Positions 661-13,700 of a DNA stretch of 13,700 nt are shown here, piece by piece (positions within the stretch are counted from its first letter, which is position 1; every line of letters starts with the position of its first letter). Below the pieces are notes generated by a model that had not been told where the DNA came from, ran no database searches, and saw nothing but the letters and a program-made list of their open reading frames with translations. The position numbers and the translations under genes are program-made. This DNA is from a virus. The stretch is taken from the UHGV virus genome UHGV-1812412, one strand, 5' to 3'.

Positions 661-768
661 TGTCCACTCTGTGGATTTGAGTTCTACTCAAACCTGCATA
701 GCAGGCACTAATATTGTGATCTAAATCAATAAGTTAGCCTGACCGGATAAACTCCAGGCAAGAAAAAA

Positions 769-793
769 GCCCCTAAGTGTTAACAAAGGGGCT
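769..793 (-). terminator. Hairpin terminator oriented for minus-strand transcripts
   Basis: GCCCC (769-773) pairs with GGGGC (788-792) around a 14-nt loop; an A-tract at 762-768 on the + strand gives a U-tract after the hairpin on the - strand. Lies about 435 nt downstream of the last minus-strand gene. Confidence 0.45.
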
Positions 794-824
794 CTTCTCC
801 GGTATCCTTTTGATGCGGGGCAAA

Positions 825-870
825 ACCTGCTAACAAAAATCAACCTCTCGCGAGACTAATGTTAGCAGGT
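825..870. repeat. Perfect 11-bp inverted repeat (ACCTGCTAACA / TGTTAGCAGGT) with a 24-nt spacer that contains the palindrome TCTCGCGAGA
   Basis: Read directly: 825-835 is the exact reverse complement of 860-870; nested palindrome at 845-854. Confidence 0.7.
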
Positions 871-1227
871 TGCCGGAAGGTAAGTCAACTCCGGCCTATA
901 AACCTTAAAGCGACTATAAAATCGCCCCGCCAATTGTGATGATCCGACCTTTGAGGCGGGTCCGGTGCCCAGGGGGTGCAGTGATGCACAAACCAGGCAA
1001 CGATAAACAGGCTAACAGTGATAGCGGCGCTCAATCAGCGCACTAAATCCTAACCAGTCCGGGAAAGAGGCTGGCTCTATCGACCGCTCATGCACGGGAC
1101 AATGCATACCTGATAAAGGATTCTCACAAGGGACCAATCGCGAGAAAAGAAGTGGAAAGGGGCTGATTTGTGGTGTATCACTACGGCCTCAAAAGAACAC
1201 TATTGTCTTTTTTAAGCCGGACCGTGA

Positions 1228-1686
1228 TTAGCCTCTCCCCACATTTGACCAATATTTGATTGCACCGATCAAATCATCATAGTGGCGCATGGCATCATTG
1301 AAGCCTTTATAGCTTGCCCATTGTGGGGAAACCTTGTTATTGCTGAATTGCCCACTAATCAGGATAGTCTCCAAAATGTCGGCGTATCGCTTGCCAATTC
1401 GCTTTCTGACGGCCTCAGAGCTCCCACCCTTTACGATTGCATTAATCAGGGCTTTTGTGTGTCTCAGGCTCTCATAGAGCATTGCAGCGTGGGCAGATTC
1501 CATAAAGGAGCGCTTAGGCAGATCACCCCACCCCTCAGAATGAATTGCTGCCAGTGTGGCGTAATTCAGGCCGCTATAGTGCTTTCCGTCATCCCAGCCA
1601 ACCGCTACACCTTCCATCTGTGAGAGCTCTTTATGCAGCTTATCCATCATGCGCTTGTCTATGGTGCAACGGACTTTCGGACTCAT
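1228..1686 (-). CDS. Hypothetical phage-associated protein, 152 aa
   Basis: Intact ORF; its ATG (1686..1684) overlaps the stop of the upstream gene in an ATGA arrangement (translational coupling); GGAGA 7 nt upstream. No family recognised. Confidence 0.55.
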   Translation of the reverse strand: MSPKVRCTIDKRMMDKLHKELSQMEGVAVGWDDGKHYSGLNYATLAAIHSEGWGDLPKRSFMESAHAAMLYESLRHTKALINAIVKGGSSEAVRKRIGKRYADILETILISGQFSNNKVSPQWASYKGFNDAMRHYDDLIGAIKYWSNVGRG

Positions 1687-2513
1687 TTGTTGATCTCCGT
1701 GATGTCATCGAGCAACATGTTGGCCTTATCAATCATCGTTTCGTGGAACTCATTCGACACAACAGACTTATCACCTGCGGCAATCTTTCCAGCAGCCTCT
1801 CCCTGTGCATATTCCCCGCGATGCTTAGCCCTGGTTGATTTCGTAGCAGCGTTGCCAGCGTTGCTACCCTCTTTAGCACTATTAACAGCACCCTTTTGCT
1901 GTGTTTTATTCACCTTCTTACTGTTAGTGAAAACTCCGGCATTTTCGACCATCTTCACCTTGAAGGTGCGGAATTCTTCAAAAGTGCAATCAATAGTGAT
2001 GCAGTCACCAGAGGAAGAGCTACGCTTAACTTCACATTTCGTCATGATGAAGTTCTCAAGGAGTCCGGCATCTTCACTTACCAGGCTAACAAGCTGGCGC
2101 TTGTCTCTCATTTCTATAAGTGCCTGAACAGCGGCGGCAGGGCGCATAGATTCACGGGGATTATCTGGATCAGTGTTCCGGTCGATGTAGTTCTCTTTCC
2201 GGATGATATGAGGGGAAGAGGTAATAATGCCCGTAAAGCTGACAGATTTATCTTTAATGACGGCATGGTCTGACATGGTGGTGCCATCCTCGACCGCATA
2301 GCTCGATTTCTCAACAGGGAACGAATAGCTGACATCAGAGATAGAGTCAAAGAAGATAGCCACATTATCGGTATAGTTGAAGCCATCCATTATATTTTTG
2401 TTTTGTGAATATCCCCCACACATAACAGTGAATGCAGGAGATCTCGACTCAGCTTGTTTTGCAGCTGTCAGAGCATCACTAGCCATAGTAAACATGCCTC
2501 CAAATTGGTCCAC
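1683..2513 (-). CDS. Hypothetical protein, 276 aa, with a Lys/Ala/Gly-rich low-complexity C-terminal region
   Basis: Intact ORF coupled to the downstream gene. The first ATG at 2513 has no usable Shine-Dalgarno; an in-frame ATG at 2486 has GGAGG 10 nt upstream and may be the true start. No family recognised. Confidence 0.55.
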   Translation of the reverse strand: MDQFGGMFTMASDALTAAKQAESRSPAFTVMCGGYSQNKNIMDGFNYTDNVAIFFDSISDVSYSFPVEKSSYAVEDGTTMSDHAVIKDKSVSFTGIITSSPHIIRKENYIDRNTDPDNPRESMRPAAAVQALIEMRDKRQLVSLVSEDAGLLENFIMTKCEVKRSSSSGDCITIDCTFEEFRTFKVKMVENAGVFTNSKKVNKTQQKGAVNSAKEGSNAGNAATKSTRAKHRGEYAQGEAAGKIAAGDKSVVSNEFHETMIDKANMLLDDITEINK

Positions 2514-2645
2514 TTCATGGATTTGGCTAAAGCCAAACCTGCAAAAGATGCAGGCAAAATAGAACTTATCGTTGCCCTGCTTAAAATCTGCAGAAAATAC
2601 AGGGCAGTTATTCGTTAGAATCGCTTATAGCTCTTCCCGAGAGCG

Positions 2646-2897
2646 TTATTTTGCAAAACGGTTATGGGCATTCAGGGCTTTTTTGCGGTCCTGGGCTTGT
2701 TTGCGTGCAATAAAATGTTCGAAAGTCTCGGCCCAGGTGCATTTATTATATTCACGGTACTTATGCATAGCCTGGCGGCTAACGTCATAGCAGGCGGCAA
2801 ATGTGGAGATACGCAGAAATTCCGGCAGATCCTCGTCATCGATATGGATAATATCAAAAGGCACGTCGTCACGGTCGCCGTATAAAACAATTTTCAT
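2646..2897 (-). CDS. Small protein, 83 aa, possible helix-turn-helix DNA-binding protein
   Basis: ORF track starts at a GTG at 2906; the in-frame ATG at 2897 has GAGGTG 6 nt upstream. Segment ISTFAACYDVSRQAMHKY resembles an HTH. Function not established. Confidence 0.5.
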   Translation of the reverse strand: MKIVLYGDRDDVPFDIIHIDDEDLPEFLRISTFAACYDVSRQAMHKYREYNKCTWAETFEHFIARKQAQDRKKALNAHNRFAK

Positions 2898-2931
2898 AAA
2901 AGACACCTCAAAAACTTAAGACGGGGATAAT

Positions 2932-2980
2932 AAAAAAGGGAAGAGGGAAAGACCTATCCCCGATCTCTCACCTCTTCCCT
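2932..2980 (-). terminator. Rho-independent terminator immediately downstream of the capsid-like gene
   Basis: 9-bp stem GGGAAGAGG (2938-2946) / CCTCTTCCC (2971-2979) with a 24-nt loop; A6 at 2932-2937 on + gives a U-tract after the hairpin on the - strand. T-rich on the + side too (2980-2994), so possibly bidirectional. Confidence 0.6.
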
Positions 2981-3010
2981 TTGCTTTTATTTGGCCTTCG
3001 AAGAAGGACC

Positions 3011-4054
3011 TTATTTAGCCTTGGCTTTTGCCAGAGCAGCGGCGGCGGAGTTACTAACACTCACTTTAACCACAACCTCAGGCATCATGTTCATGAAAGC
3101 ATAAGAGGATTCAATGAAGATTTCTCGTTTACCTCTGGACTCTTCCATATACATGAAAGCTTCACGTGCAGCGCCGTTTGCAAGCTTCAGGTTGCGAGCG
3201 CAAGGGCCGAAAAATTGAGTATAAACGCCCACCATATCGCCTAACGCATGTGGCTGGAATTGTGGGACCAGATAAGCAGTATTCTCTGGCAGACTATCCA
3301 TTTGCACCACACGCAGAGCTAAGCCCGGAATGCGGAAGGTCGGGAAGCCCGGCAGAATATCCTCAGGGAACATCAGACCTTTATCGGTAATATTCTGATT
3401 GCCGAACAACAGCACTTTACGGAGCAGTTCATCAGTCTGAATAGCGGCGAACACCTCAGCACGGCAGAACAGGGTGAAACCACGCAGAGCGCGAACGACA
3501 CCACGCTGTTTAACCTTGCTCAGTGCAACCAGGTCCTGCAGTTGTTTGAGAATATCTTGAGCTAGATCCATTTCAGAGGTGGACTGTTCCACGCCCAGCA
3601 GTTCGCACACATTCAGCTCTTTACCCTTGGTGAGGATAATTTTGTTCTCAAAGAGAGCAAGCTGGCGTGCTTCTTCGTGGGTCTGGCGTAAGCCTTCGCC
3701 CAGTTGAATAACACGACGAGCGGTTACAGACTCTAAATTCTCTTCGGAATCTTTGCCCGGAACACGGATACCTTGCCAGTCAGAAGGATAAATAGCACTT
3801 GATGCGGCAGTGAATGCCATATCACCCGTGCCCGTTTCACGCTCATCTGCGGTAATGGTCGCCATCTGTTCACCGTAGCGCGGATACTGACCGAAAGCGG
3901 TTTGTTTCACCTGGCGAACTTTGTCATATTCAAATTTAAAGGTATTGCACAGAGCAGTAGTGTTGAAGATATCCATTGCTGAAATAATCTGGTTATCCAG
4001 CGGGATGTCTTTAATCAAGCCACACAGATCGCGGACTTCGAATTCTTTTTTCAT
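3011..4054 (-). CDS. Putative phage major capsid protein (lambda gpE-like), 347 aa
   Basis: Long ORF; ATG at 4054 with GGAGG 6 nt upstream (ORF track begins at a TTG at 4060). N-terminal MDIFNTTALCNTFKFEYD and C-terminal IESSYAFMNMMPEVVVKVSV resemble lambda gpE (TTAQLL...KFKFD; MIQSAPLMLLADPDEFVSV) as recalled from memory, not search-verified. Followed by a strong terminator, as expected for a highly expressed capsid gene. Confidence 0.55.
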   Translation of the reverse strand: MKKEFEVRDLCGLIKDIPLDNQIISAMDIFNTTALCNTFKFEYDKVRQVKQTAFGQYPRYGEQMATITADERETGTGDMAFTAASSAIYPSDWQGIRVPGKDSEENLESVTARRVIQLGEGLRQTHEEARQLALFENKIILTKGKELNVCELLGVEQSTSEMDLAQDILKQLQDLVALSKVKQRGVVRALRGFTLFCRAEVFAAIQTDELLRKVLLFGNQNITDKGLMFPEDILPGFPTFRIPGLALRVVQMDSLPENTAYLVPQFQPHALGDMVGVYTQFFGPCARNLKLANGAAREAFMYMEESRGKREIFIESSYAFMNMMPEVVVKVSVSNSAAAALAKAKAK

Positions 4055-4065
4055 CTCCAACCTCC

Positions 4066-4401
4066 TTATTGTGCAACACGCAAATCGCCATTGCTGGCAG
4101 CGATAACAGCGGCTAAGCCTTCTTTATCCACGTAGGCCGGATTGATATAACAGCCCTTGTTGGCAACAACGATAAAAGCATCACCAACCTCAGCACGTTC
4201 TACAACCAGCAGCGGAGTTTTATCGGTGTGCGTTTCTTTAACGAAGGTCTCAACCTCGCCAGCCTCAGTCACCACAACAACAGTGCCAGCCGGAATCTCA
4301 GCTTTAACTTTGTTTTTAATTTCAACGTCGCGAATACTAAATTGCTCATCTGCGGCGTATGAAATGATGTGTCCGCGTGTGCGGATAGTCATATCTCTCA
4401 T
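4066..4401 (-). CDS. Putative head decoration / capsid accessory protein, 111 aa
   Basis: ORF ends 11 nt before the capsid start; AGGTGA 6 nt upstream of its ATG. Size and position directly upstream of the capsid gene fit a decoration or cement protein. Function is by context only. Confidence 0.45.
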   Translation of the reverse strand: MRDMTIRTRGHIISYAADEQFSIRDVEIKNKVKAEIPAGTVVVVTEAGEVETFVKETHTDKTPLLVVERAEVGDAFIVVANKGCYINPAYVDKEGLAAVIAASNGDLRVAQ

Positions 4402-5215
4402 TTGATCACCTGCGATTTAAATTAACTCCCCTCAAAGAGTTCCGGTATAACCTCTCAAACCACGACGCTCGGGCCGAAAAGTTATGCCGGAAATCTAAAG
4501 GGAAATTGATACAAGGAGAGGGAGATAGCCCCGCACCGTCCAAGCGGGGGCTATTCCATATGGGGAAAACCAACAACAGTTGGCTGATAGTTCACAGTAT
4601 GGGTTACTAGAGAGCACTATCACGAAAGACACTCCCCCGAATCAGTTCAGGCTGCGGTCACATCAGCGGGGAAATACCTTTCGGGATAGCTACCCACACA
4701 GAAAACCCGCAAAAGAAAACTGTGTGGATAACTAGCCCAATAGGAGAATTAATCGACCACTCAACGATGATCAGGGTAGTGTTATTTATAAGGCGGCACC
4801 GCTACCTGGTCGCCTTTACTTTGGAGGAAAATACGGCAAATCAAGATCTTCTCACAATGATATTGACGCCATACTGTATATTATATCAGTATTTACTCAC
4901 ATTGTCAACACCCTGATTATATAAATTCTAATAATTAGCGTAGTAACGGTATTTTCAGACCTCTATCAATCCCATCAATACGTCACCCCACCCTTTAGAT
5001 GCATACATCCGACCTACTTTGTAGGCTTGGCGTACTGCCAAGGTCGCAGCTATGCGACTCCTATCTATCACCACTTTATAAAGCTTGATAGATATCCGTT
5101 GATCAATATCAATGTTTTCCGGGGATTTACCCGGCTATAGTTCGAATCAAGGAAGGGGAGCATTGATAGCACCCAACCGAGCAAACAAATCAACTTCTCG
5201 CAAAAGGTTATAGAT

Positions 5216-5338
5216 ATGGGTATCAAGAACAGTGCCAGCGCATGGCAAAAGGCCAGGTTTCATCACCCACACATGGTTAAGGCAATTGAGGTGGTTGGAG
5301 TTTTAGCCCTGATGTTAGCTCTGTGTGTGGAGGTGTGA
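5216..5338 (+). CDS. Micro-ORF, 40 aa, hydrophobic C-terminus (MGIKNSASAWQKARFHHPHMVKAIEVVGVLALMLALCVEV)
   Basis: ATG preceded by AAAGG 8 nt upstream inside a 17-nt leader motif that is duplicated before the membrane protein gene; its stop is 1 nt before the next ATG. Confidence 0.25.
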   Translation: MGIKNSASAWQKARFHHPHMVKAIEVVGVLALMLALCVEV

Positions 5339-5339
5339 G

Positions 5340-5420
5340 ATGGGCAAAGGAGGCAAAGCATTTTTAATAGGTCTGGCAGTCTTAGATTTTGTATTAATCA
5401 TCATTGAGCGGAGTTTATGA
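5340..5420 (+). CDS. Micro-ORF, 26 aa, single hydrophobic helix (MGKGGKAFLIGLAVLDFVLIIIERSL)
   Basis: ATG at 5340 with GGAGG 6 nt upstream; its stop overlaps the ATG of the following HTH gene (ATGA at 5417-5420). Confidence 0.25.
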   Translation: MGKGGKAFLIGLAVLDFVLIIIERSL

Positions 5421-5677
5421 CGGGAACTAAAGATATTAAGAGACTGAGGGAAGAGCTGATAGCTGAAATTAAAGCGAAGGCAAAGCAAATGGAGATAGCC
5501 GCACAAATGGATGTAGCGGAACAGATGTACAAGATGGTTGAGGAGGGAACGCCACGACAGGTTATAGCAAAAACCTTCGGTGTGGGGATCGCCACCGTGC
5601 ACAGAAGGCTGAAAGCCTATGCCGACTACCACAATATCGAGAGAAAGGAGGATGGGAGATTTAAGAAGAATAAATAG
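5417..5677 (+). CDS. Small DNA-binding protein with resolvase/invertase-type helix-turn-helix, 86 aa
   Basis: Segment TPRQVIAKTFGVGIATVHRRLK matches the pattern of the Hin/Gin-type C-terminal HTH (PRQ-LA-FG-G-ST--R, recalled from memory); N-terminal half predicted coiled coil. No catalytic recombinase domain present. Confidence 0.65.
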   Translation: MTGTKDIKRLREELIAEIKAKAKQMEIAAQMDVAEQMYKMVEEGTPRQVIAKTFGVGIATVHRRLKAYADYHNIERKEDGRFKKNK

Positions 5678-5769
5678 TGTGAACAGTCCAATAGGTTAAG
5701 CTCTGGCTCATAGCCCTCGCCTCGAGGGTGTTATTAACTAAATTCAACTTCTCGCAAAGGGGTACCATT

Positions 5770-6291
5770 ATGTTATTTCAGAAAGATAAAGAATCAGAAA
5801 ACAAAAAGCTTTTTAAAGCAATAGTAAAAATGTTCTTTCAGTACACTGCAGCGTTTTTGATAGCCGGGCCTTGGTTAATGGCTATCTGTTTTTACCCTGC
5901 TACCTTGTTTATTGGCAGTAGCAAGTTCGGCGATGGCCCGTTTCATGTGGATATTGGTTTTATAGATTCTCTCCTGATCCGTCCTATAAATGCTGTTCTC
6001 AATGCTTTCTACTTCCCCACTAGTCTAGAGGGGTGGTCGGTAACCTGGGGTGTTTTAGGCTTAGCATATGTATATTGGTTGGTTGGCTTTTTGTGGGGTG
6101 CAATCTGTGCTCTCCTCGATATTGATACAGGATCAAGCCGTAGGAGTGGTGGTAATAATAGCGGAGCGGGTGTATATGCACACGTAGGTACCAGAGGGGT
6201 AAGTATCACCGCAGGTACCCGATTCGCTGGCGGCTGGCTGAGCATAGGCAAACGCGGCGTTAGTTGGAGAAAAAGCAAAAAACTGTTCTGA
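5770..6291 (+). CDS. Membrane protein, 173 aa from ATG 5770, with at least two hydrophobic helices and a Gly-rich basic tail containing a repeated G-x-R-G-V-S motif
   Basis: ORF track starts at a GTG at 5728; the ATG at 5770 has AAGGGG 7 nt upstream. Hydrophobic helices FFQYTAAFLIAGPWLMAICFYPATLFI and WGVLGLAYVYWLVGFLWGAICALL; tail has GTRGVS and GKRGVS. Terminator directly downstream. Confidence 0.6.
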   Translation: MLFQKDKESENKKLFKAIVKMFFQYTAAFLIAGPWLMAICFYPATLFIGSSKFGDGPFHVDIGFIDSLLIRPINAVLNAFYFPTSLEGWSVTWGVLGLAYVYWLVGFLWGAICALLDIDTGSSRRSGGNNSGAGVYAHVGTRGVSITAGTRFAGGWLSIGKRGVSWRKSKKLF

Positions 6292-6298
6292 CCTACCA

Positions 6299-6322
6299 GG
6301 GGGGCCATCACGGCCCCTTTTT
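6299..6322 (+). terminator. Rho-independent terminator after the membrane protein gene
   Basis: GGGGCC (6301-6306) / GGCCCC (6312-6317) stem with 5-nt loop, followed by TTTTT (6318-6322). Confidence 0.7.
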
Positions 6323-7636
6323 ATTTATCCCTCAATTAACCCCTATTTATCCCCTATTTAATGCCTATTTATTGATTTAATCCGTTTTATGCCACAACCG
6401 CCCGGTTGACAGAGTAAGAGAGAGGGTGTAACCCTTTTTCGTAATACCAATAAAATCAATAGCTTAGCTCAATTGGCCTTTTCTCTGTTTTTGTCAAATT
6501 TAACATACCCTCAAAAACTGCAAAATCTGGCTGCAAGATTATCTGCAGCTGGATTTCTTACACCTCAATTTGTGGTATCACCCTGACTAGTTTGTGCATA
6601 AAATGAACAGTTTTTAACATTTCCTCCTCACCTGGTAACCACACAAAAAGCTAAAAACGAGGCACAGATAATCTTAGAGGCCTGTTTTCTTGTTATCACT
6701 CTGGGAACGTCGTAGAAGTGATTTTGATGAAAGACGGCCTACCCTATTACACCCCCATTTTTTGTTATCACAATTGCATCCTGTGCGGTATATGACTATG
6801 TGCTGAAAGCGGTCTCAGGTGTTGGTGTCAGAAATATCCATTAGCGGTATTTGAGCTTATGGGTAACTCGTCTGAGGTGCCAGGCAGGCGCTCCCCTACC
6901 TCCCCTTTTTCTTCTAACAATTCTCAAATATCACACCACTGCCCACCACGTTGCTATTATGTTAATTCTTAAGCTTTGCTGTATGTTGTGCACATTATTT
7001 ATTCAGATGCATGTACGTAAATTCTGTGCCCACTGATCATGATTTTTAAATCAGATTTTGTAGTGCGCTTTATTAGTGTAGATAAGATCTATTATGTTAA
7101 ATGCAATTTTCCCAACCCTTCAAATCAATGACTTACATGTAAGCATGCACTAACACCCCACACAGCACATTAGACGTGTAGATGTCTATATCCCACATTT
7201 TTGATTGTTTTGTAGTCATTCCCCTGATCATTTAACCAGTATAGTTTGCTCTCTGCAGACCACAAAATCGGAATTTACATCTGATTAACATAATCTGTTA
7301 GCATGATCACCATTACCCACACAACAATAACCCCATGCAAGCCTCTTCAGGCAATTTATCGGCGTGTTGGTGTGAACAGTCTTTCATGTTCTTTATGTAT
7401 TCATGACTGCAAGGAATGTATTCATTGGCCTGTGTGGGGGAAGGATGGACTGCCTCAGGGGCCATACTTATGATGCCCGGTCAACATAGCTGTTGATAAA
7501 ATCAATGGGTGTTGATCTGCGTATTTCCCACACATGAGAGGAAATCAAAGCAAAGAGAGAGGAGAGAGGTTTGTTAGTCAAAATAGGTCAATTGACGGCT
7601 AATACAGAGTAAAAAATCAGATGCAATCACTCCCCC

Positions 7637-7819
7637 ACCTGTTGGGATTTCCCTCACCTGTATAAGAATACAGTCATACTTTCCCGTTATACGGTCATAC
7701 ACATGATGGAATAACCTGTTGGAATTTCCCACAGGTTCAACCATACATAAGCATTAACCTGTTGGAATTTCCTACTACTACCTGTCGGTATTTCCCACAG
7801 GTACCTGTTGGAATTTCCC
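7637..7819. repeat. Iteron array: five direct copies of a 17-mer ACCTGTYGGWATTTCCC
   Basis: Copies at 7637-7653, 7714-7730, 7757-7772, 7780-7796, 7803-7819; the last three are exactly 23 bp apart. Two copies are followed by the inverse ACAGGT. Partial copies of the ATTTCCCACA core at 7522-7534 and 8321-8333. Confidence 0.75.
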
Positions 7820-7911
7820 ACACTAATAGATAAAGAGAATAGATTAATAAAAAGATACCCCCCTAACCCCCCAGGGGGAATGGGGAGGGATCAGAGAGTG
7901 GGGAAGGTTTT

Positions 7912-8014
7912 CTAGATGTACGTAATTGGTACACTTAAAGGTGGATAATATGAGGCTAGATGTACGTAATTGGTACACTTAGAATATTCTAGATGTACGT
8001 AATTGGTACACTTA
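7912..8014. repeat. Three identical 26-bp direct repeats CTAGATGTACGTAATTGGTACACTTA, each with an internal dyad TGTAC-N7-GTACA
   Basis: Copies at 7912-7937, 7956-7981, 7989-8014; start-to-start spacing 44 and 33 bp (multiples of about 11, same helical face). A near DnaA box GGTGGATAA lies at 7940-7948. Confidence 0.8.
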
Positions 8015-8339
8015 AATCACATAAGTTATTGAGTTTATTAGAAAAAGTGATTCACCTATATATACTACTGATTCGCCTCCGCTCATCATTAGTATGGTGT
8101 AACTGATTCATGCTTCGCTTACGCTCACATTCATCTACTTACACCCCCTTATCTGAATTGAACATTCCCGTCCAATCCAGCTAAGAGAATTGATTGAACA
8201 TTACCTAACATCCGTTAGCTAACATTCTAATCAATTAACTACTTAATCACTTCCACACCTTCCGGTGGTGCCAAGTGTCCTGGCATGGTGGGAAAAGATT
8301 CTGCCGTTTTAGGTAGAATTGATTTCCCACAAATAGTAA

Positions 8340-8660
8340 GTGTCGGCCCTTCAATGTCACTCTCCTATGAGGGGGAGAGATGACGGGCCTCCTGTGTGGG
8401 TGAGTATCGGAGCAGTCTGTGAAGTATGAGCAGGCTGTGAGATACGCTACTGTATATCTGCGTAGAACAGCCTCCGCTGTTTACGCTCTTTGTGTGGGTC
8501 CGGCGAATGCGACAGCATGAGGCCCACATGTGGACCGCTGCCGAAAGCTTGCCAGCGCCGGAAGGAGGCGGCAAAGAGTCTCCCGCGCGGTTGTAGGTCC
8601 GCGCCGGACTTTAACTTACAGTTAAACCCTTCGGGCTTGTGCGGGTGCACGCACACATAT
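8340..8660. other. GC-rich, hairpin-dense non-coding island, candidate structured RNA or DNA processing site
   Basis: Sharp rise in GC relative to AT-rich flanks. Local stems include TCTCC/GGAGA (8361-8379), GCGCGG/CCGCGC (8585-8604), TTTAAC/GTTAAA (8609-8625) and GTGCG/CGCAC (8639-8654). The only ORFs are two overlapping Arg/Pro/Ser-rich minus-strand frames without RBS. Confidence 0.3.
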
Positions 8661-8843
8661 ATATAAAGGATACACTCATAAATCGAAAATAAGCGCGATT
8701 TTAGCGCCTACAGCGAGATAAACTATACTCCCTAGTGTAATTGCATTACCTGATGCTTAAATCGCGTTGTAGGGCCTCTCATGAGGTTTGAGTTTAACAC
8801 CCTCCAAAGTTTTAACAAAAAGTGCTCTCCCTCCATTGTGGGC

Positions 8844-9013
8844 CATTGACAATCTTATTGCATAAATGCTATAAGTTATTCTGATTTTGACACGGTAGGG
8901 GCCATTAATAATGCTTACCCCTTTGCTGTGGACTTGCTTGTGTCTGCTGTGCAGGCTATGGCACCTATAGCTCGCCTAAATGATAATGATTCCTATTGAC
9001 AATTGGTTGTCAA
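8844..9013 (+). promoter_or_regulatory. Operator-like 9-bp palindromes ATTGACAAT overlapping -35-like TTGACA hexamers; candidate tandem promoters
   Basis: ATTGACAAT at 8844-8852 and 8995-9003; the second is part of an 18-bp dyad TTGACAA-TTGG-TTGTCAA (8996-9013). Possible promoters: TTGACA 8846-8851 + 18 nt + TATAAG 8870-8875; TTGACA 8996-9001 + 17 nt + TAAGAT 9019-9024. Confidence 0.4.
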
Positions 9014-9059
9014 TATGATAAGATTATAGATAGTGGGAGAAACAGATCCGGAGGTCAAC

Positions 9060-9209
9060 GTGGAACTGAGCGACGCTATAGCGATCATCAACCTGGCTGT
9101 ACTGTGGTGCGGTGTTGCCTACATAGCCGGAGTAACTGCAATCGACAACCTTGAAGAAAAAATGATAGATAAATACAAAAAGATTGTTGACAATCTCGCA
9201 AATAGCTGA
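9060..9209 (+). CDS. Small hydrophobic protein, 49 aa, GTG start
   Basis: GGAGG at 9050-9054, 5 nt before the GTG at 9060; product MELSDAIAIINLAVLWCGVAYIAGVTAIDNLEEKMIDKYKKIVDNLANS has one predicted transmembrane helix. Not in the supplied ORF track (below the length cutoff). Confidence 0.35.
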   Translation: MELSDAIAIINLAVLWCGVAYIAGVTAIDNLEEKMIDKYKKIVDNLANS

Positions 9210-9215
9210 TAAAAT
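9182..9215 (+). promoter_or_regulatory. Sigma70-type promoter with an operator dyad over the -35
   Basis: -35 TTGACA (9187-9192), 17-nt spacer, -10 TAAAAT (9210-9215); dyad GATTGT-TG-ACAATC (9182-9195) overlaps the -35 and shares the TTGACAAT core with the upstream palindromes. Confidence 0.5.
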
Positions 9216-9263
9216 ATAAATCATAGGGTAATTCTCAGCATGTGAATTTTCCTTAAACAGACT

Positions 9264-9295
9264 AGCGGGGCTTGTCTTGAGTCCCGTTTCTTTTT
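9264..9295 (+). terminator. Promoter-proximal hairpin plus U-tract (attenuator or 3' end of a short RNA)
   Basis: CGGGGC (9266-9271) pairs with GTCCCG (9281-9286), with one G-U pair, around a 9-nt loop, followed by TTTCTTTTT (9287-9295). Sits about 50 nt after the predicted start site and 44 nt before the next ATG. Confidence 0.5.
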
Positions 9296-9338
9296 AAACC
9301 TACATCGCACAGGCGGTGAGCCAACAGGAGATTGAATC

Positions 9339-9548
9339 ATGGCTAAAACTGGACCGATCAGCCAGCTGGTAGACTGGACTACTGACGAAATCGTCGAGAA
9401 CGTGCTTAAAGGTAACTTTCGAAAAACTTCTGTTTATGCATTTATTCGAAAACACAAAGGAGAATATCCACACATTGAAGCGGCAATAGAAAAACTTAAC
9501 TTTATTAAACTTGAGCGCCAGCTGGAAAGATATAAACACCTACTTTGA
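9339..9548 (+). CDS. Small protein, 69 aa, possibly DNA-binding
   Basis: AGGAG at 9326-9330, 8 nt before the ATG; first gene after the promoter/attenuator. No family recognised. Confidence 0.6.
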   Translation: MAKTGPISQLVDWTTDEIVENVLKGNFRKTSVYAFIRKHKGEYPHIEAAIEKLNFIKLERQLERYKHLL

Positions 9549-9584
9549 TAAAAGGTAACCGTAACCCGGTAAGAGGTAAACATT

Positions 9585-10454
9585 ATGAATATTAAGTCTG
9601 TTTTTAATATAACTTTAAATGATGATCCTAGTATCCTTTTGCTGCCTATGCTCATAAACAAATCTGGACTATTAAAAAAAGGCGACGCAAGGGATATTTA
9701 TATTTATATGTGGAATATTTACTATCTCAACGCTAAAAAAGAGGCCGCCAAGGTGTTCAGTAAGAAGACTAAAGGAAGAAGCCTCAGTCAGGATATGAAA
9801 GATTCCATAAGAAAAGAATGTTTTGCAATTAATGATAAAGATTCCTGTGTGGAAATCTCTTATAAGGATATAGAGGAAAGAGTAGGAATATTACGACCAC
9901 ACGCAGTAAGGGCAATTAAAAAGCTGGAATCTGAAGGAATTATCACCTGCCTTAAAAAAGGCAATAAGCATAACCCTTATGCATCATGGCAAATTAATGT
10001 CGGAATCTTTGAAATGATGGAAAGAGTAGGGATTGAAAACCTCATTGGGTGGGATCTCTTAAAACCATATTGGAAGAAAGAACAGGAAGCAGCCGGAAGA
10101 GGGGAGGGGGATAAAGCCCCGCAAGAAGCCCCAAAACAGGCCGCACAGCAAGCTAAAAAGGCCGAGGTGGTGCAGTTCCCTTCTACGAAAGATAAGAGCG
10201 TCAGAATCGAGCGTAGCTCTCATCCTGAAAGTGTGACAACGTCACCTGTTAAGACAAACAATGAAGGGCCAGTGAAAGAGATACCCAAAATTATAGACAT
10301 TTCTTCTTTTATGGCAGATGAGGAAGATATGCAAGATGAGTGGTGGACACCTCCAGAAAATAATGATTATGGTTATGATCCTTATGGCTATGATGAAGAT
10401 GAATATAGCCCGTTTGAAGATGAATATATAAATGATTCCGCTATCCCTTATTAA
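9585..10454 (+). CDS. Winged-helix DNA-binding protein, 289 aa, with a Lys/Ala/Gln-rich linker and an acidic, aromatic C-terminal tail; candidate replication initiator or regulator
   Basis: AAGAGGT 7 nt before the ATG. Segment ISYKDIEERVGILRPHAVRAIKKLESEGIITC has the classic winged-helix pattern seen in replication initiators and MarR-like regulators; C-terminus DEEDMQDEWWTPPENNDYGYDPYGYDEDEYSPFEDEY. Function inferred. Confidence 0.75.
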   Translation: MNIKSVFNITLNDDPSILLLPMLINKSGLLKKGDARDIYIYMWNIYYLNAKKEAAKVFSKKTKGRSLSQDMKDSIRKECFAINDKDSCVEISYKDIEERVGILRPHAVRAIKKLESEGIITCLKKGNKHNPYASWQINVGIFEMMERVGIENLIGWDLLKPYWKKEQEAAGRGEGDKAPQEAPKQAAQQAKKAEVVQFPSTKDKSVRIERSSHPESVTTSPVKTNNEGPVKEIPKIIDISSFMADEEDMQDEWWTPPENNDYGYDPYGYDEDEYSPFEDEYINDSAIPY

Positions 10455-10542
10455 TACCCCCAAATAAACTAAATAAACTAAACATAGAATTACTAGAACT
10501 AGATTGATTGCCCTGATCTTTTAAACGTTCGGAGAATTAATC

Positions 10543-11028
10543 ATGTTCAAATCTGATCTTTCTGATTCCCAATTTGAAAAACTGGTAGCACTGCAGAAAT
10601 ATCTCCCCAGTGATGATCAACCAACACGACAGGCCAAACACTTATTAGTCGAGGGCTTTACCCCTGAATTCGTAGCGGAATATACAGGCGTTAAACTTGA
10701 GAAAGTCCAAAAACTATATAATGAGTCCTGGAATCCACGGTGTCGAGTTCCCCTCAGTGTCTATAACGAAATAGATAGAGATAAAAATGTCTTCGAAGAT
10801 CGCCGCCGCAAATCTCTTTTAATGTGGAATTGCGGGATGAATATTGAAGAGATAGCAAAAGAATTAAAAGTAACCTGCTTTCATATTTGGGGCTTGTTGA
10901 GTGAAATCCTGCCACGTAAGGAGCTTAATCAACGTTTGCCTAAGCCCGGTAGTCGTGCTTATCGCGAATTTATATTCATCTACCGCCGCCATAGCAATAA
11001 AGTCCGGAAAGCAATGCAGCGCAAATAG
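10543..11028 (+). CDS. Hypothetical protein, 161 aa, with two HTH-like segments and a basic C-terminus
   Basis: GGAGA 7 nt before the ATG; HTH-like segments FTPEFVAEYTGVKLEKVQKLY and MNIEEIAKELKVTCFHIWGLL. Could be a small terminase subunit-like or regulatory protein; not resolved. Confidence 0.7.
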   Translation: MFKSDLSDSQFEKLVALQKYLPSDDQPTRQAKHLLVEGFTPEFVAEYTGVKLEKVQKLYNESWNPRCRVPLSVYNEIDRDKNVFEDRRRKSLLMWNCGMNIEEIAKELKVTCFHIWGLLSEILPRKELNQRLPKPGSRAYREFIFIYRRHSNKVRKAMQRK

Positions 11029-11116
11029 CTTATAGCCTTCACATATGCCGCAAGTTATTGATTCTGCCGTCCGGTAAATATGCCGGATGGCTCATATAAA
11101 TTTTAAGGAATTCCAA

Positions 11117-11560
11117 ATGTCTCAAATCGCTAAATTACTATCCCAGGTTATCAAAGCTATCGACGCTGAAGATTCAAAAGTTCGCCAGGATCTTTTAGAT
11201 GGCAAGTTTACCAATACTCTGGCATTTACCCGTGACAAAGAGCACTTCTTAGAGCACAAACATCCCGCCTTTGTTGAATGCAAGTCCGCTAATGGTGATG
11301 TTTTCTATGTCGATTTGGTGGTTATGGCTATGCGCCTGTGGATGATTCAGGACCTTATGCGCCAACACGGTGATGATCCTCTTATCAGCATGTGGAACAG
11401 CGCCCAGGATGGCTTTGTGATTGCTGCCTTATCCAAATCCATGATTGAGGCAGAAGGCGCAAGCCTTCAAAACATGGCAGATCTCTTTGAAATAAGCGTA
11501 GGAATGATGCAGACCATGCTGCAGGCGGTGAAGCCTCTCAAGCTGGTTAACCTTGAATAA
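11117..11560 (+). CDS. Hypothetical protein, 147 aa
   Basis: ORF track begins at an ATG at 11087 with no RBS; the in-frame ATG at 11117 has AAGGAA 6 nt upstream. Followed by a terminator. Confidence 0.65.
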   Translation: MSQIAKLLSQVIKAIDAEDSKVRQDLLDGKFTNTLAFTRDKEHFLEHKHPAFVECKSANGDVFYVDLVVMAMRLWMIQDLMRQHGDDPLISMWNSAQDGFVIAALSKSMIEAEGASLQNMADLFEISVGMMQTMLQAVKPLKLVNLE

Positions 11561-11571
11561 TTGATTAATAA

Positions 11572-11606
11572 GCACCCTCAAAAAATGGGGGTGCCTTTAT
11601 TTATCT
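11572..11606 (+). terminator. Rho-independent terminator
   Basis: GCACCC (11572-11577) / GGGTGC (11589-11594) stem followed by the T-rich run CTTTATTTATCTT. Confidence 0.6.
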
Positions 11607-11638
11607 TACTTTTCACGTTTATCTAAAAGGATATGCCT

Positions 11639-12022
11639 ATGAATATTGAAGAAATGATAGTTGAATTCGATGATGGTGATTTCCTGGAAGATGGGGAGTT
11701 TAAATACTCCCGTTTTAAACAGGCGTTATTTAGCAGCGATGATAAACCCCACGTTAGTGATCTAAATGACGATGATTTATGTCGCTGGGTATGCACCCGC
11801 TTATATGAGGATGGAAAATATACAGGCCAAAACTTTCCAAATCTCTATTTCAAAGCACAAACATTTGAGGAAGGGCAAAGAGTGAAAAACCTGGTCGATA
11901 AAATGCTGTCAGCCGGATATTTGCATAAAGAATTATTAAATCCTAAAGCTGAAAGCAAGCGCCATTATATTTTTGTGTGGACTATTGGCGATAAGTGTCC
12001 ACTAAGACGCAAAGGCAAATGA
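11639..12022 (+). CDS. Acidic protein, 127 aa, in the position of a tail assembly chaperone
   Basis: ATG at 11639 has AAGGA 8 nt upstream (the ATG at 11633 is too close to it). Product is strongly acidic at the N-terminus; sits two genes upstream of the tape measure gene, as gpG-like chaperones do. Inferred from position and composition. Confidence 0.55.
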   Translation: MNIEEMIVEFDDGDFLEDGEFKYSRFKQALFSSDDKPHVSDLNDDDLCRWVCTRLYEDGKYTGQNFPNLYFKAQTFEEGQRVKNLVDKMLSAGYLHKELLNPKAESKRHYIFVWTIGDKCPLRRKGK

Positions 12023-12023
12023 T

Positions 12024-12209
12024 ATGAATACCTACGAAAAGATTTATCAAAAATTAAAAAGTGATAACAATGCTCCCGTCATCAAGGGCGGGGCTTCTTC
12101 CTCTGGTGACCTCTCAATCGAAGAGCTTGCGGAGAAATATAATATTGATAAAGAGGCCCTGAAAAGGGCTATTTCATTATCAAAATCTTTAAGACAGGGC
12201 GAGGTGTAA
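12024..12209 (+). CDS. Small protein, 61 aa, immediately upstream of the tape measure gene
   Basis: ATG 1 nt after the stop of the preceding gene (TGA-t-ATG); ends 3 nt before the tape measure ATG. Could be independent or the extension part of a frameshifted chaperone. Confidence 0.45.
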   Translation: MNTYEKIYQKLKSDNNAPVIKGGASSSGDLSIEELAEKYNIDKEALKRAISLSKSLRQGEV

Positions 12210-12212
12210 GAG

Positions 12213-13700
12213 ATGGCAATGAAGGAAGTCGCCAGACTAACAAACGTTATTTACTGGGATTCTGATAAATCCAGCTGGCGAAAAGAAGTTAAACGGCTTG
12301 AGGATTATAAAAAATCCTGGAAGAAAGCCACCGACGATATAGCTAAAGCTGATTTTAAATCTAATCAGGCTGTGCTCAGAACACAAAGAACACGCGCTAA
12401 GGTGGAAGAGCAGATTGCCAGAGCTCAGAGGAAACAACAGGAAGCACAGAAGAAACAACGTGCTCAGGCTGTCAGCCGTCTGACCGGGGGCAACAATGCC
12501 GAACTTAACTCTATGCGCAAGTTCTATCAGCAGCAAGCCAGAGAGGCCGCCAGACAACAAAAACTGTTAGATCGTAGTGTTGGAGATGTTCAGCACAGAA
12601 AAGCACGTGTAGGGGCCAACAGTGCACGAATTAGCGGCATGTTTGATGGCTCTATCGTCTCCCAGTTCCAGGGGCGCATTCAAAGAGTTAATGCTGATTA
12701 TGCTAAAGGGGCTATAAACCTGCAGACCTATAATCAGAGGATGGCTCGGCTCAGAGCTGAAATGAAGATGGCAACAGCAGAGGCCGGAAAATTTCAGAGC
12801 AGACTGGATAAACTGGCATCAGGTGCCAGCAAGGTGCATGACAACCTGGGCAAAATCAACTCCACACTAGGCAAGATAGCCATTGGCCTTACTGCCGCTG
12901 GCTGGGGTGTTCAGCGTGCTGTTAGTGGTGCTATGGGTAGCCTTGCAGATCGCAACAGTGCCTACTTCGGTTTAATGGCTCAGAACAAGGATGATAAAGC
13001 CAAGACTGATCAGCAGATGGCTTTTATCAAGAACACAGCCTACACCTATGGGATGGATGAGCGGGAGATGCAAGGGGGCTACATGCGCTTTGCTGCAGCT
13101 ACTCCCACCATGAAGGAATCTGATAAGCAGGCTCTTTTTGAGGCTATGGCTATTAAAGGTCGCTCAGTGGGTGCTACTGGCGAGCAACAGAACAGGGCGC
13201 TTGTTGCGGTCCAACAAATGGCTTCAAAGGGAAAAGTTATGGCAGAAGAGCTGCGGGGCCAACTGTCAGAAGCCTTTGCAGGCTCACAACAGGATTTTCA
13301 ACAGGCCGCTATTGATGCCGGAATCATCAAGAATGCCCAGGAATTCGATAAAGCCCTTAAAGATGGCAAAATCACCCTGGACAAACTTCTTCCTTCTCTG
13401 GTGAAAATCTGGGGTGCAGCAAAAGAAACTAAAGCTTTTGCTGAATCCATGAAACAACCGGAAGTAGCACTGCAGCGCATGAAAAACAGCTTTAACGAGC
13501 TGGCGATTCAGTTTATGGGTGTTGTGGATCCTGCGGATGGCGTTATTAGCTTATCTGAATCTCTGATCTCCATCTTCGAAGACCTCACCACTGATATGGA
13601 CGGCAGCGGGAGCGCGGCAAAACAGTTCGGTGAGGCAGTCGGGGCTGCCATGCGTGAGATCATGTATTGGGTAGGCTTCGCTAAGGGATATATTGAGGTC
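12213..13700 (+). CDS. Partial CDS (3' end outside window): N-terminal part of a phage tail tape measure protein
   Basis: ATG at 12213 with GAGGTG 7 nt upstream; frame stays open to the window edge (496 codons). Missing from the supplied ORF track because it has no stop in the window. Coiled-coil N-terminus, then NRALVAVQQMASKGKVMAEELRGQLSEAF, which matches the conserved tape-measure domain pattern. Confidence 0.8.
   Translation, partial: MAMKEVARLTNVIYWDSDKSSWRKEVKRLEDYKKSWKKATDDIAKADFKSNQAVLRTQRTRAKVEEQIARAQRKQQEAQKKQRAQAVSRLTGGNNAELNSMRKFYQQQAREAARQQKLLDRSVGDVQHRKARVGANSARISGMFDGSIVSQFQGRIQRVNADYAKGAINLQTYNQRMARLRAEMKMATAEAGKFQSRLDKLASGASKVHDNLGKINSTLGKIAIGLTAAGWGVQRAVSGAMGSLADRNSAYFGLMAQNKDDKAKTDQQMAFIKNTAYTYGMDEREMQGGYMRFAAATPTMKESDKQALFEAMAIKGRSVGATGEQQNRALVAVQQMASKGKVMAEELRGQLSEAFAGSQQDFQQAAIDAGIIKNAQEFDKALKDGKITLDKLLPSLVKIWGAAKETKAFAESMKQPEVALQRMKNSFNELAIQFMGVVDPADGVISLSESLISIFEDLTTDMDGSGSAAKQFGEAVGAAMREIMYWVGFAKGYIEV

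What the first reader, a model, noticed from the sequence alone, without database searches (positions are those of the whole stretch)
7912..8014. Three identical 26-bp repeats phased on one helical face
Exact 26-mers at 44 and 33 bp spacing, each with a TGTAC-N7-GTACA dyad, suggest cooperative binding of a dimeric protein, as at partition sites or repressor operator arrays. A near DnaA box lies between copies 1 and 2.
Basis: seen in the sequence. Interest (0 to 1): 0.65.

Follow-up and report, generated by a model that had tools for sequence, protein, structure and literature searches.

The report
Type-specific initiator binding sites, plasmid origin
The three identical 26-bp repeats are real and are almost certainly the docking sites for this small capsid-encoding E. 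coli plasmid's own winged-helix DNA-binding protein, most likely forming its replication origin, because related plasmids keep the same three positions and swap the repeat sequence exactly when the protein's DNA-reading helix changes.

Summary
CTAGATGTACGTAATTGGTACACTTA occurs exactly three times (7912, 7956, 7989; spacing 44 and 33), and each copy holds a TGTAC-N7-GTACA dyad.

The window is a complete 13.7-kb circular E. coli plasmid that encodes capsid and tail proteins. The repeats open a ~420-bp cassette (7915-8335). Only plasmids that carry one allele family of the winged-helix protein at 9585-10454 have this cassette.

I examined 14 distinct plasmids of this type:
- Three dyad sites sit at the same offsets (44/33) beside a conserved AT-rich tract.
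- The half-site sequence (TGTAC, TGTAT, TGTGC or CATAT) tracks the protein's recognition helix (LRPHAVR, LRPNAVR, ARTDALK, LQPNIAR) without exception, including two blind predictions.
- Other segments of the protein and of the DNA in between assort independently.

The protein is homologous (hhalign 98%) to the O-like replication initiators found at the same locus in sister plasmids. It is the only initiator candidate I found.

Best reading: these are lambda-ori-like dyad iterons of a swapped-in replicon module (confidence 0.65). Binding by this protein is far more certain than the function of that binding.

The partition or repressor reading is less likely. The near-DnaA box is not conserved. 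This is a new variant of a known kind, of moderate interest.

The parts
7912..7937 (.). Repeat copy 1 (site 1, distal): CTAGATGTACGTAATTGGTACACTTA, dyad TGTAC-N7-GTACA at 7917-7933
   Evidence: same offset in all window-type plasmids
7956..7981 (.). Repeat copy 2 (site 2), 44 bp after copy 1
   Evidence: spacing conserved across types
7989..8014 (.). Repeat copy 3 (site 3, next to the AT-rich tract), 33 bp after copy 2
7940..7948 (-). Near-DnaA box TTATCCACC (8 of 9) in the longer spacer between copies 1 and 2; probably not functional
   Evidence: 14 matches with at most 1 mismatch in the plasmid; not conserved in types A', B, C
8015..8074 (.). AT-rich tract directly after copy 3 (GC 24-28% in 50-nt windows spanning 7975-8074); candidate DNA-unwinding element; its right end ACCTATATATACTACTGATTC is invariant in 12 plasmids
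   Evidence: no single-strand structure (z +0.88)
8039..8066 (+). Weak sigma-70-like promoter match TAGAAA-16-TATACT inside the AT-rich tract (9 of 12)
   Evidence: consensus match only
8066..8335 (.). Conserved, hairpin-rich right part of the cassette, with compensatory changes (CTAAC..GTTAG to CTGAC..GTCAG; CACC..GGTG to CATC..GATG); function unknown (candidate ssDNA or RNA element of the origin)
7915..8335 (.). Whole cassette, present only in plasmids that carry the window-type wHTH protein; in 7 of the 9 database relatives homology breaks exactly at 7914
9585..10454 (+). Gene of the 289-aa wHTH protein inferred to bind the repeats: recognition helix about residues 104-116 (LRPHAVRAIKKLE), wing about 125-132, disordered acidic C-terminal half (173-289)
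7637..7825 (+). Five 23-bp direct repeats ACCTGTTGGAATTTCCCACAGGT (spacing 23-77): iterons of the 'standard' initiator type. In this plasmid they have no cognate protein. The array is dispensable in L023/L024

Best explanation
The three 26-bp repeats are the cognate binding sites of the plasmid's own winged-helix protein (289 aa, 9585-10454). Each 25-bp dyad (9+7+9; inner half-site TGTAC) is read by a dimer, with the recognition helix and wing of each subunit contacting one half-site. The three sites, at a fixed 44/33-bp geometry, together with the adjoining AT-rich tract (8015-8074) and the conserved hairpin-rich segment (to about 8335), form a replication-origin module. That module was swapped in with its initiator allele, next to the now orphaned 23-bp iterons of the ancestral initiator type. 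It works like lambda ori: dimers on dyad iterons assemble a nucleoprotein complex that opens the neighbouring AT-rich DNA. The disordered acidic C-terminal tail would then recruit host replication factors. Shown computationally: the repeats, the conserved geometry, the one-to-one covariation with the recognition helix, the wHTH fold, the homology to initiators at the same locus, and the AT-rich neighbour. Inferred: dimer binding, origin firing at this place, and the role of the tail.
For: (1) The cassette with the repeats occurs only where the window-type protein occurs. Eight of the nine database relatives have a protein only 23-29% identical and lack the cassette. L003 has an 81% identical protein and the cassette. 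(2) In 14 distinct plasmids (16 loci), the three sites at offsets about -105, -61 and -28 from a conserved anchor change sequence strictly with the recognition helix. LRPHAVR goes with TGTAC-N7-GTACA (window, L010). LRPNAVR goes with TGTAT-N6/7-ATACA (L011, L023/24). ARTDALK goes with TGTGC-N7-GCACA (L012, L013/14, L015). LQPNIAR goes with CATAT-CAAnnTG-ATATA (L003, L016-20, L025). Two of these were predicted before the DNA was read (P0024 and P0038). (3) The N-terminal segment, the linker insertion, the wing residue K/A and the downstream hairpin module assort independently of helix type, so simple linkage does not explain the match. (4) Within arrays of types A', B and C the arms are conserved and the spacers vary. 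(5) No other copy of the site exists in the plasmid. (6) The protein aligns with the 'standard' proteins of the same locus at hhalign probability 98.1%, E 8.8e-14, over the wHTH and linker. Those proteins hit phage replication-initiator families (phrog_270, 678, 391, 186; 1e-7 to 1e-10) and Pfam HTH_36. The window protein itself hits O-like PHROGs at 3e-5. (7) No other initiator candidate appears among the 16 ORFs scanned. (8) GC falls to 24-28% right after site 3, and the detrended cumulative GC-skew minimum is at 8263 (weak evidence). (9) L023/L024 have lost the 23-bp iteron array but keep the three dyad sites. L016-L020 have lost the ancestral AT-rich segment. (10) The AlphaFold model gives a confident wHTH (pLDDT 70-94, residues 1-172) with MarR/CodY-like neighbours, a class that binds dyads as dimers. 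The lambda precedent, 19-bp inverted-repeat iterons bound by O dimers next to an AT-rich tract, is described in PMC7466680.
Against: There is no experimental evidence, and the origin has not been mapped. The protein's own matches to initiator families are weak (3e-5 and worse). It reaches no Pfam gathering score, and its fold matches are generic wHTH regulators. Its N-domain has no relatives outside this plasmid family among 1.84 billion representatives, so function cannot be transferred from a characterised homologue. It lacks the folded C-terminal domain of the standard initiators. The sites lie 1.6 kb from the gene rather than inside or beside it. No helicase loader is encoded. The GC-skew minimum is confounded by gene orientation. 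A conserved 1.3-kb non-coding stretch (6355-7650) shared by all family members could hold a host-driven origin instead.
Confidence: 0.65

Rival explanations
1. Operator array. The same wHTH protein binds the three sites as a transcription factor. It would either activate or repress the weak promoter-like element just downstream (8039-8066), or block a leftward transcript that ends at the terminator-like hairpin at 7879-7858. Replication would be driven from elsewhere.
For: The fold and weak sequence matches are to MarR/CodY/Crp-type regulators. A promoter-like match lies 25 bp after site 3. The cassette folds better as a leftward transcript, and a conserved terminator-like hairpin lies just left of the repeats.
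Against: The promoter match is weak (9 of 12; 8 such matches in the region against 4.5 expected). The strong promoters that head the protein's own operon (8996-9024, 9187-9215) have no site. On this reading the window-type plasmids would have no initiator at all. The protein is homologous to initiators at the same locus. The AT-rich tract and the loss of the 23-bp iterons in L023 fit an origin better.
Confidence: 0.13
2. Centromere-like segregation site. The protein acts as a one-protein partition adaptor (in the manner of pSK1 Par), or recruits a partition ATPase supplied by a co-resident helper element. The repeats are its centromere.
For: Arrays of dyad repeats at fixed phasing are typical of centromeres (F sopC has 43-bp units with inverted arms; from general knowledge). 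Type-specific switching resembles incompatibility-driven divergence of ParB/parS pairs. DBD-only paralogues on rival plasmids could equally interfere with partition.
Against: No ParA/ParM/TubZ-like gene turned up in the 16 ORFs scanned. The protein is homologous to initiator-family proteins, not to ParB/ParR/ParG. Only three sites are present. The sites are not next to the gene. This reading does not explain the adjacent invariant AT-rich tract.
Confidence: 0.08
3. Packaging-specificity site. The wHTH protein is a small-terminase-like specificity factor of this capsid-encoding, satellite-like plasmid, and the repeats are its pac/cosB-type recognition site.
For: The element encodes capsid and tail proteins, and no terminase or small terminase was identified among the 16 ORFs scanned. 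Small terminases often use an N-terminal wHTH and bind repeated sites (general knowledge, e.g. lambda Nu1 and the cosB R sites). A 39.6-kb trimer record exists.
Against: PHROG matches are to replication initiators, with none to terminase families. The known cosB R sites are not dyads. This reading does not explain the AT-rich neighbour. Sister plasmids use 23-bp direct repeats at 23-bp spacing with the homologous protein, which is the classic iteron arrangement.
Confidence: 0.07
4. Recent local triplication with no function.
For: In this plasmid the three copies are 100% identical, spacer included.
Against: The same three positions are kept in four diverged sequence types, with arms conserved and spacers variable. 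They covary with a protein helix. The spacing is uneven (44/33), is conserved, and has non-homologous spacers, which is not the pattern of a tandem duplication.
Confidence: 0.02

Closest known systems
Lambdoid phage origin (ori-lambda iterons bound by O protein)
   Same: Repeated sites that are each an imperfect inverted repeat, bound by an initiator dimer, directly flanked by an AT-rich tract (PMC7466680). The initiator has an N-terminal DNA-binding domain, a flexible linker and a C-terminal effector part. Iteron sequence and the initiator's N-domain differ together between related elements (type specificity among lambdoid phages is from general knowledge). There are weak PHROG 'O-like' matches.
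   Different: There are three 25-bp sites at 44/33-bp spacing; from memory, lambda has four 19-bp sites about 20-24 bp apart. The sites lie 1.6 kb upstream of the gene, not inside it. No P-like helicase loader is encoded. A disordered acidic tail replaces the folded C-terminal domain. Sequence similarity to O is marginal, and the N-domain is an orphan.
Iteron-type theta plasmids (pSC101, P1, F, R6K, RK2; Rep_3/WH1-WH2 initiators)
   Same: A plasmid-encoded initiator binds repeated sites beside an AT-rich unwinding element. The sites act as specificity or incompatibility determinants. The sister plasmids' 23-bp direct repeats at 23-bp spacing (7637-7825 here) look exactly like this class.
   Different: The 26-bp repeats are dyads at 33/44 bp, not asymmetric 17-22-bp direct repeats at about 22 bp. 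There is no Rep_3 or two-winged-helix architecture. There is no inverted half-iteron operator at the rep promoter. The DnaA box is only a non-conserved 8/9 match.
ParB/parS-type or sopC-type centromeres with species-specific recognition (P1/P7, F)
   Same: Arrays of dyad sites, with discrete specificity classes that change by a few recognition residues and a few bases.
   Different: No partition NTPase was found, the protein is not ParB/ParR/ParG-like, and the sites sit next to an AT-rich tract rather than a par operon.
MarR-family dimeric repressors and their pseudo-palindromic operators
   Same: The best fold and sequence neighbours are MarR/CodY/SarA-type wHTH proteins. The dyad sites have half-site centres about 12 bp apart.
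   Different: The MarR Pfam score (17.5) is below the gathering cut-off (24.6). No Foldseek match reaches E 0.001. There is a long disordered acidic tail. The sites do not overlap a convincing promoter. The protein occupies the initiator locus and is homologous to initiators.

Membership tests
Lambda-O-type origin | Several repeated sites, each an imperfect inverted repeat | tested here: met
   Three 25-bp dyads (9+7+9)..
Lambda-O-type origin | AT-rich tract directly beside the proximal iteron | tested here: met
   GC 24-28% in 50-nt windows spanning 7975-8074. The tract is conserved in position in 12 plasmids.
Lambda-O-type origin | Initiator is a recognisable member of the O protein family | tested here: inconclusive
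   The protein hits PHROG O-like families only at 3e-5 to 6e-3, and no Pfam family reaches its gathering score. It is homologous (hhalign 98%) to sister-plasmid proteins that hit initiator PHROGs at 1e-7 to 1e-10.
Lambda-O-type origin | Origin lies within the initiator gene; a partner helicase loader (P-like) is encoded next to it | tested here: not met
   The sites are 1.6 kb upstream of the gene, and there is no further copy inside it. No P/DnaC-like protein appears among the scanned ORFs.
Lambda-O-type origin | Initiator binds the iterons and opens the AT-rich DNA | not testable with these tools
   Binding is inferred from helix/site covariation in 14 plasmids. Opening is not addressed.
Iteron plasmid (Rep_3 / WH1-WH2 class) | Asymmetric 17-22-bp direct repeats at about 22-bp (two-turn) spacing | tested here: not met
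   The 26-bp repeats are dyads at 44/33 bp. The neighbouring 23-bp array (7637-7825) does meet this feature, but it has no cognate protein here.
Iteron plasmid (Rep_3 / WH1-WH2 class) | Rep with two winged-helix domains (Pfam Rep_3) | tested here: not met
   There is no Rep_3 hit. The model shows one wHTH plus a disordered tail.
Iteron plasmid (Rep_3 / WH1-WH2 class) | Autoregulatory inverted half-iterons at the rep promoter | tested here: not met
   No site with at most 1-3 mismatches occurs anywhere else in the plasmid.
Iteron plasmid (Rep_3 / WH1-WH2 class) | Conserved DnaA box(es) in the origin | tested here: not met
   There is only an 8/9 match at 7940-7948. It is absent from the same spacer in types A', B and C.
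Plasmid partition centromere | Cognate NTPase (ParA/ParM/TubZ) encoded by the element | tested here: not met
   None appears among the 16 ORFs scanned with Pfam and PHROGs.
Plasmid partition centromere | Centromere-binding protein of ParB, ParR/ParG (RHH) or a comparable family | tested here: not met
   The protein is a wHTH related to initiator families. It has no ParB or RHH hits.
Plasmid partition centromere | The cloned site stabilises a plasmid or exerts incompatibility | not testable with these tools
   Requires an experiment.
Repressor operator array (lambda OR-like) | Sites overlap the -35/-10 elements of a regulated promoter | tested here: not met
   The nearest promoter-like match (8039-8066; 9 of 12) starts 25 bp after site 3. 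The strong promoters at 8996-9215 carry no site.
MarR family | Pfam MarR/MarR_2 match above the gathering score | tested here: not met
   17.5 bits against a cut-off of 24.6. Fold neighbours are MarR-like but none reaches E 0.001.

The most novel reading that the evidence does not exclude
The repeats belong to a previously undescribed, self-contained replicon module. It is built around an orphan winged-helix initiator whose folded effector domain has been replaced by a disordered acidic tail ending ...DSAIPY. That ending resembles the SSB C-terminal tip and might recruit SSB-client primosome proteins directly. The module has diversified into at least four mutually exclusive specificity (incompatibility) classes. 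One class differs by a single helix residue (H106N) matched by a single half-site base change (C to T). Rival plasmids of the same capsid-encoding, satellite-like family carry DNA-binding-domain-only copies with no cognate site of their own, and many plasmids keep single 'foreign-type' sites. That pattern would be expected if origin-blocking decoy proteins and titrating sites serve as weapons in plasmid-plasmid competition.
Probability: 0.15. Interest if true: 0.75.

Novelty: new variant of a known kind. Interest (0 to 1): 0.5.

Why it matters
If confirmed, this family offers a compact natural allelic series for protein-DNA recognition: four helix variants and four half-site variants at an invariant geometry, one pair separated by a single residue and a single base. 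It would also be a clear case of replicon-module swapping and incompatibility-driven diversification. The host is an apparently undescribed family of 13-14-kb E. coli plasmids that encode their own capsid and tail proteins. It would define the origin and initiator of that family, which is needed before its suspected phage-satellite lifestyle can be studied. On its own, an initiator binding repeated sites next to an AT-rich tract is textbook biology.

Tried and rejected
- **Search for the repeat elsewhere.** The 20-nt core has 0 exact matches in IMG/VR contigs. The cassette searched by blastn against phages, PLSDB and complete E. coli genomes finds only NZ_CP020521. So the sites are not borrowed from a known phage or plasmid system, at least in those collections.
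- **RNA families.** Rfam gives nothing, at gathering threshold on the whole window or at E<=1 on 6200-9400.
- **Repeats as RNA or ssDNA hairpins.** Folding is not better than shuffles (z -1.0 and -1.2), so this was rejected.
- **The 69-aa protein (9339-9548) as specificity factor.** Its sequence is conserved and tracks neither repeat family, so this was rejected.
- **The 23-bp repeats as the window protein's sites.** They are shared with L001/L002, whose protein has a different N-domain. They vary independently of the window-type helix, and the array is lost in L023. Rejected.
- **DnaA box.** It is an 8/9 match, not conserved.
- **Small ORFs in 7800-8700.** None is plausible or conserved; the only ATG ORF there starts inside repeat 3.
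- **Function from structure.** PDB sequence search, Foldseek and the 1.84-billion-protein representative search gave only generic wHTH matches or nothing.
- **Cognate sites for the 166-aa paralogues in L021/L022.** None found.
- **Literature.** Searches for a description of this plasmid family found nothing relevant.
- **GC skew.** The minimum falls at 8263 inside the cassette, but the profile is flat and confounded by gene orientation. I count it only as weak support.

Full report
**The observation.**
The sequence holds CTAGATGTACGTAATTGGTACACTTA at 7912, 7956 and 7989.
- Start-to-start spacing is 44 and 33 bp. Copies 1 and 3 are identical over 30 nt.
- A 24-nt core searched with up to three mismatches finds only these three places, and none appear in 200 shuffles.
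- The dyad TGTAC-N7-GTACA occurs nowhere else in the window.
- The region does not fold better than shuffled sequence as a single strand (z about -1). The dyads therefore look like double-stranded protein sites, not hairpins.
- The phasing claim is approximate. The spacings are multiples of 11, not of 10.5.

**The context.**
- The tape-measure ORF runs from 12213 across the end of the window to 660, giving 715 aa. The window is therefore a complete circle.
- It is a 13.7-kb E. coli plasmid. Its family has 9 members in PLSDB and RefSeq, of 13.2-13.7 kb, plus a 39.6-kb trimer.
- It encodes a major capsid protein, a Dit-like baseplate protein, a tail-completion-like protein and a tape measure.
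- A gene-poor stretch (about 6300-9000) holds five 23-bp direct repeats (7637-7825), then the three 26-bp repeats.

**The repeats are absent from the nearest relatives, for a reason.**
- None of the nine database relatives has the 26-mer.
- In seven of them, homology stops exactly at 7914.
- Only L003 (NZ_CP020521) shares the DNA that follows (8004-8490). At the same place it has three different dyad repeats, ATATCA-N3-TGATAT.
- Comparing all proteins showed one outlier, the wHTH protein at 9585-10454. It is 81% identical to L003's protein and only 23-29% identical to the others.
- Cassette and protein allele therefore travel together.

**The covariation test.**
- A protein search found 50 clusters of this protein, all on E. 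coli contigs, most of 13-14 kb.
- Their recognition helix and wing fall into discrete classes.
- I fetched contigs for twelve representatives.
- In all 14 distinct plasmids that carry the long form, three dyad sites lie at the same offsets from a conserved anchor. The spacing is 44/33 (43/32 where the spacer is one base shorter), and L016 has a fourth copy at a further 44 bp.
- The inner half-site follows the helix without exception:

| Recognition helix | Site | Plasmids |
|---|---|---|
| LRPHAVR | TGTAC-N7-GTACA | window, L010 |
| LRPNAVR | TGTAT-N6/7-ATACA | L011, L023/24 |
| ARTDALK | TGTGC-N7-GCACA | L012, L013/14, L015 |
| LQPNIAR | CATAT-CAAnnTG-ATATA | L003, L016-20, L025 |

- Two cases were predicted before the DNA was read. 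P0024 has the N-variant helix. P0038 combines a type-C helix with a type-B-like wing residue. Both came out as the helix predicts.
- The N-terminal segment, a 15-residue linker insertion, the wing residue and the next hairpin module downstream are shuffled relative to these classes. Linkage alone is therefore a poor explanation.
- Within arrays of types A', B and C the arms are conserved and the spacers vary.
- All four site types fit one 9+7+9 frame.

**What the protein is.**
- AlphaFold gives a confident N-terminal domain (residues 1-172, pLDDT 70-94).
- The model shows a wHTH with recognition helix 104-116 and wing about 125-132. Those are the positions that differ between classes.
- The C-terminal half (173-289) is disordered.
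- Fold and sequence neighbours are generic MarR/CodY-type wHTH proteins, and none is significant.
- The N-domain has no relatives outside this plasmid family among 1.84 billion representative proteins.
- A profile comparison aligns the wHTH and linker with the 'standard' proteins of the same locus in sister plasmids (probability 98.1%, E 8.8e-14).
- Those standard proteins match phage replication-initiator families at 1e-7 to 1e-10, and HTH_36. The window protein itself matches O-like PHROGs at 3e-5.
- In the sister plasmids the 23-bp direct repeats change with the standard protein's helix, as iterons should.
- In window-type plasmids the 23-bp repeats vary independently of the protein. The array is collapsed to one copy in L023/L024.

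**Why an origin is the best reading.**
- The sites abut the most AT-rich DNA of the region, at 24-28% GC. Its right end is invariant in 12 plasmids.
- No other initiator candidate is encoded among the 16 ORFs scanned.
- The ancestral iterons, or their AT-rich neighbour, can be lost while the triplet is kept.
- The detrended cumulative GC-skew minimum falls at 8263, but this is weak evidence confounded by gene orientation.
- The arrangement works like ori-lambda, where O dimers bind 19-bp imperfect inverted repeats next to an AT-rich tract (PMC7466680).
- It is not a member of that family in the strict sense. The sites are outside the gene, no P-like loader is present, and sequence similarity to O is marginal.

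**Rivals.**
- *Operator array.* This remains possible. A weak promoter-like match lies 25 bp downstream, and a terminator-like hairpin on the other strand lies just upstream.
- *Centromere.* No NTPase was found among the 16 ORFs scanned.
- *Packaging site.* This deserves mention because the element carries capsid and tail genes and no terminase was identified among the scanned ORFs. However, all family matches point to initiators.
- *Meaningless recent triplication.* This is excluded by conservation of the geometry across diverged types.

**The DnaA box.**
TTATCCACC (7940-7948, minus strand) is an 8/9 match, one of 14 such in the plasmid. The spacer that carries it is unrelated in the other site types. 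I give it little weight.

**Verdict.**
- The repeats are real and functional.
- Binding by the plasmid's own wHTH protein is very likely; I put it near 0.9.
- The origin role is likely (0.65) but unproven.
- This is a new variant of a known kind, of moderate interest. The allelic series and the unusual host element are the most attractive aspects.

Noticed in passing
whole window (1-13700); L001-L025: The window is a complete 13.7-kb circular E. coli plasmid. It encodes a major capsid protein (3011-4060, -), a Dit-like protein (1683-2513, -), a tail-completion-like protein (1228-1686, -) and a 715-aa tape measure (12213 wrapping to 660). No terminase, portal or integrase was identified among the 16 ORFs scanned. 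The capsid protein has no tblastn match in 50,697 phage records, and literature searches found no description of the family. It looks like an undescribed plasmid-borne phage-satellite-like lineage.
   Followed up: partly
L009 (NZ_CP043822.1), 39,610 bp: One database record is a head-to-tail trimer of the 13.2-kb unit, with some copies carrying truncated genes. Its size is about that of a mid-sized phage genome. It may reflect concatemer packaging or an assembly artefact.
   Followed up: no
window 6300-9000; motif hits at 4693, 5266, 7157, 7316, 7431, 7527, 8393, 8491: The 8-mer TGTGTGGG/CCCACACA occurs 9 times against 0.34 expected. Its polarity flips across 7530-8390. The non-coding region right of the repeats is an array of hairpin modules bounded by this motif. 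The modules are shuffled between plasmids and show compensatory base changes. There is no Rfam match.
   Followed up: partly
L021:2858-3358 and L022:10001-10501: 166-aa paralogues that comprise only the DNA-binding domain (58-64% identical; type-B-like and type-C-like helices) sit upstream of a standard 295-aa initiator. These plasmids lack the cassette and have no cognate dyad site. They may be trans-acting blockers of rival plasmids' sites.
   Followed up: partly
L003, L011, L013, L016-L020, L023, L025 (100-230 bp upstream of the anchor): Single sites of a foreign specificity class lie just upstream of the cognate triplet. There is one type-B site in every type-C plasmid and one type-C site in the A' plasmids. 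L013 has B, C, A' and a hybrid site. They could be relics of past module swaps or titrating decoys.
   Followed up: no
window 7637-7825: Five 23-bp direct repeats ACCTGTTGGAATTTCCCACAGGT are 95% conserved with L001/L002, whose initiator has a different N-domain. In this plasmid they have no cognate protein, yet they are intact. L023/L024 have collapsed the array to one copy.
   Followed up: yes
window 10101-10454 (protein residues 173-289): The C-terminal 117 residues are predicted disordered (pLDDT below 50) and very acidic. They end ...YDEDEYSPFEDEYINDSAIPY, which resembles the acidic IPF tip of E. coli SSB. That resemblance is from memory and was not tested.
   Followed up: no
window 8986-9024 and 9187-9215; 7858-7879: Overlapping divergent strong promoter matches occur near 9000: TTGACA-17-TAAGAT rightward and TTGACA-16-AATCAT leftward. 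A second rightward one lies at 9187-9215. A conserved terminator-like hairpin on the minus strand lies at 7879-7858. Together these would bracket a leftward non-coding transcript of about 1.1 kb that crosses the repeats. The cassette folds better on the minus strand.
   Followed up: no
window, both strands: Matches to the DnaA-box consensus TTATCCACA with at most one mismatch are enriched: 14 against 3.7 expected, and 0 of 200 shuffles reach 14. There is one perfect box at 4723-4731 (-) in the non-coding stretch between the capsid operon and the HTH gene.
   Followed up: no
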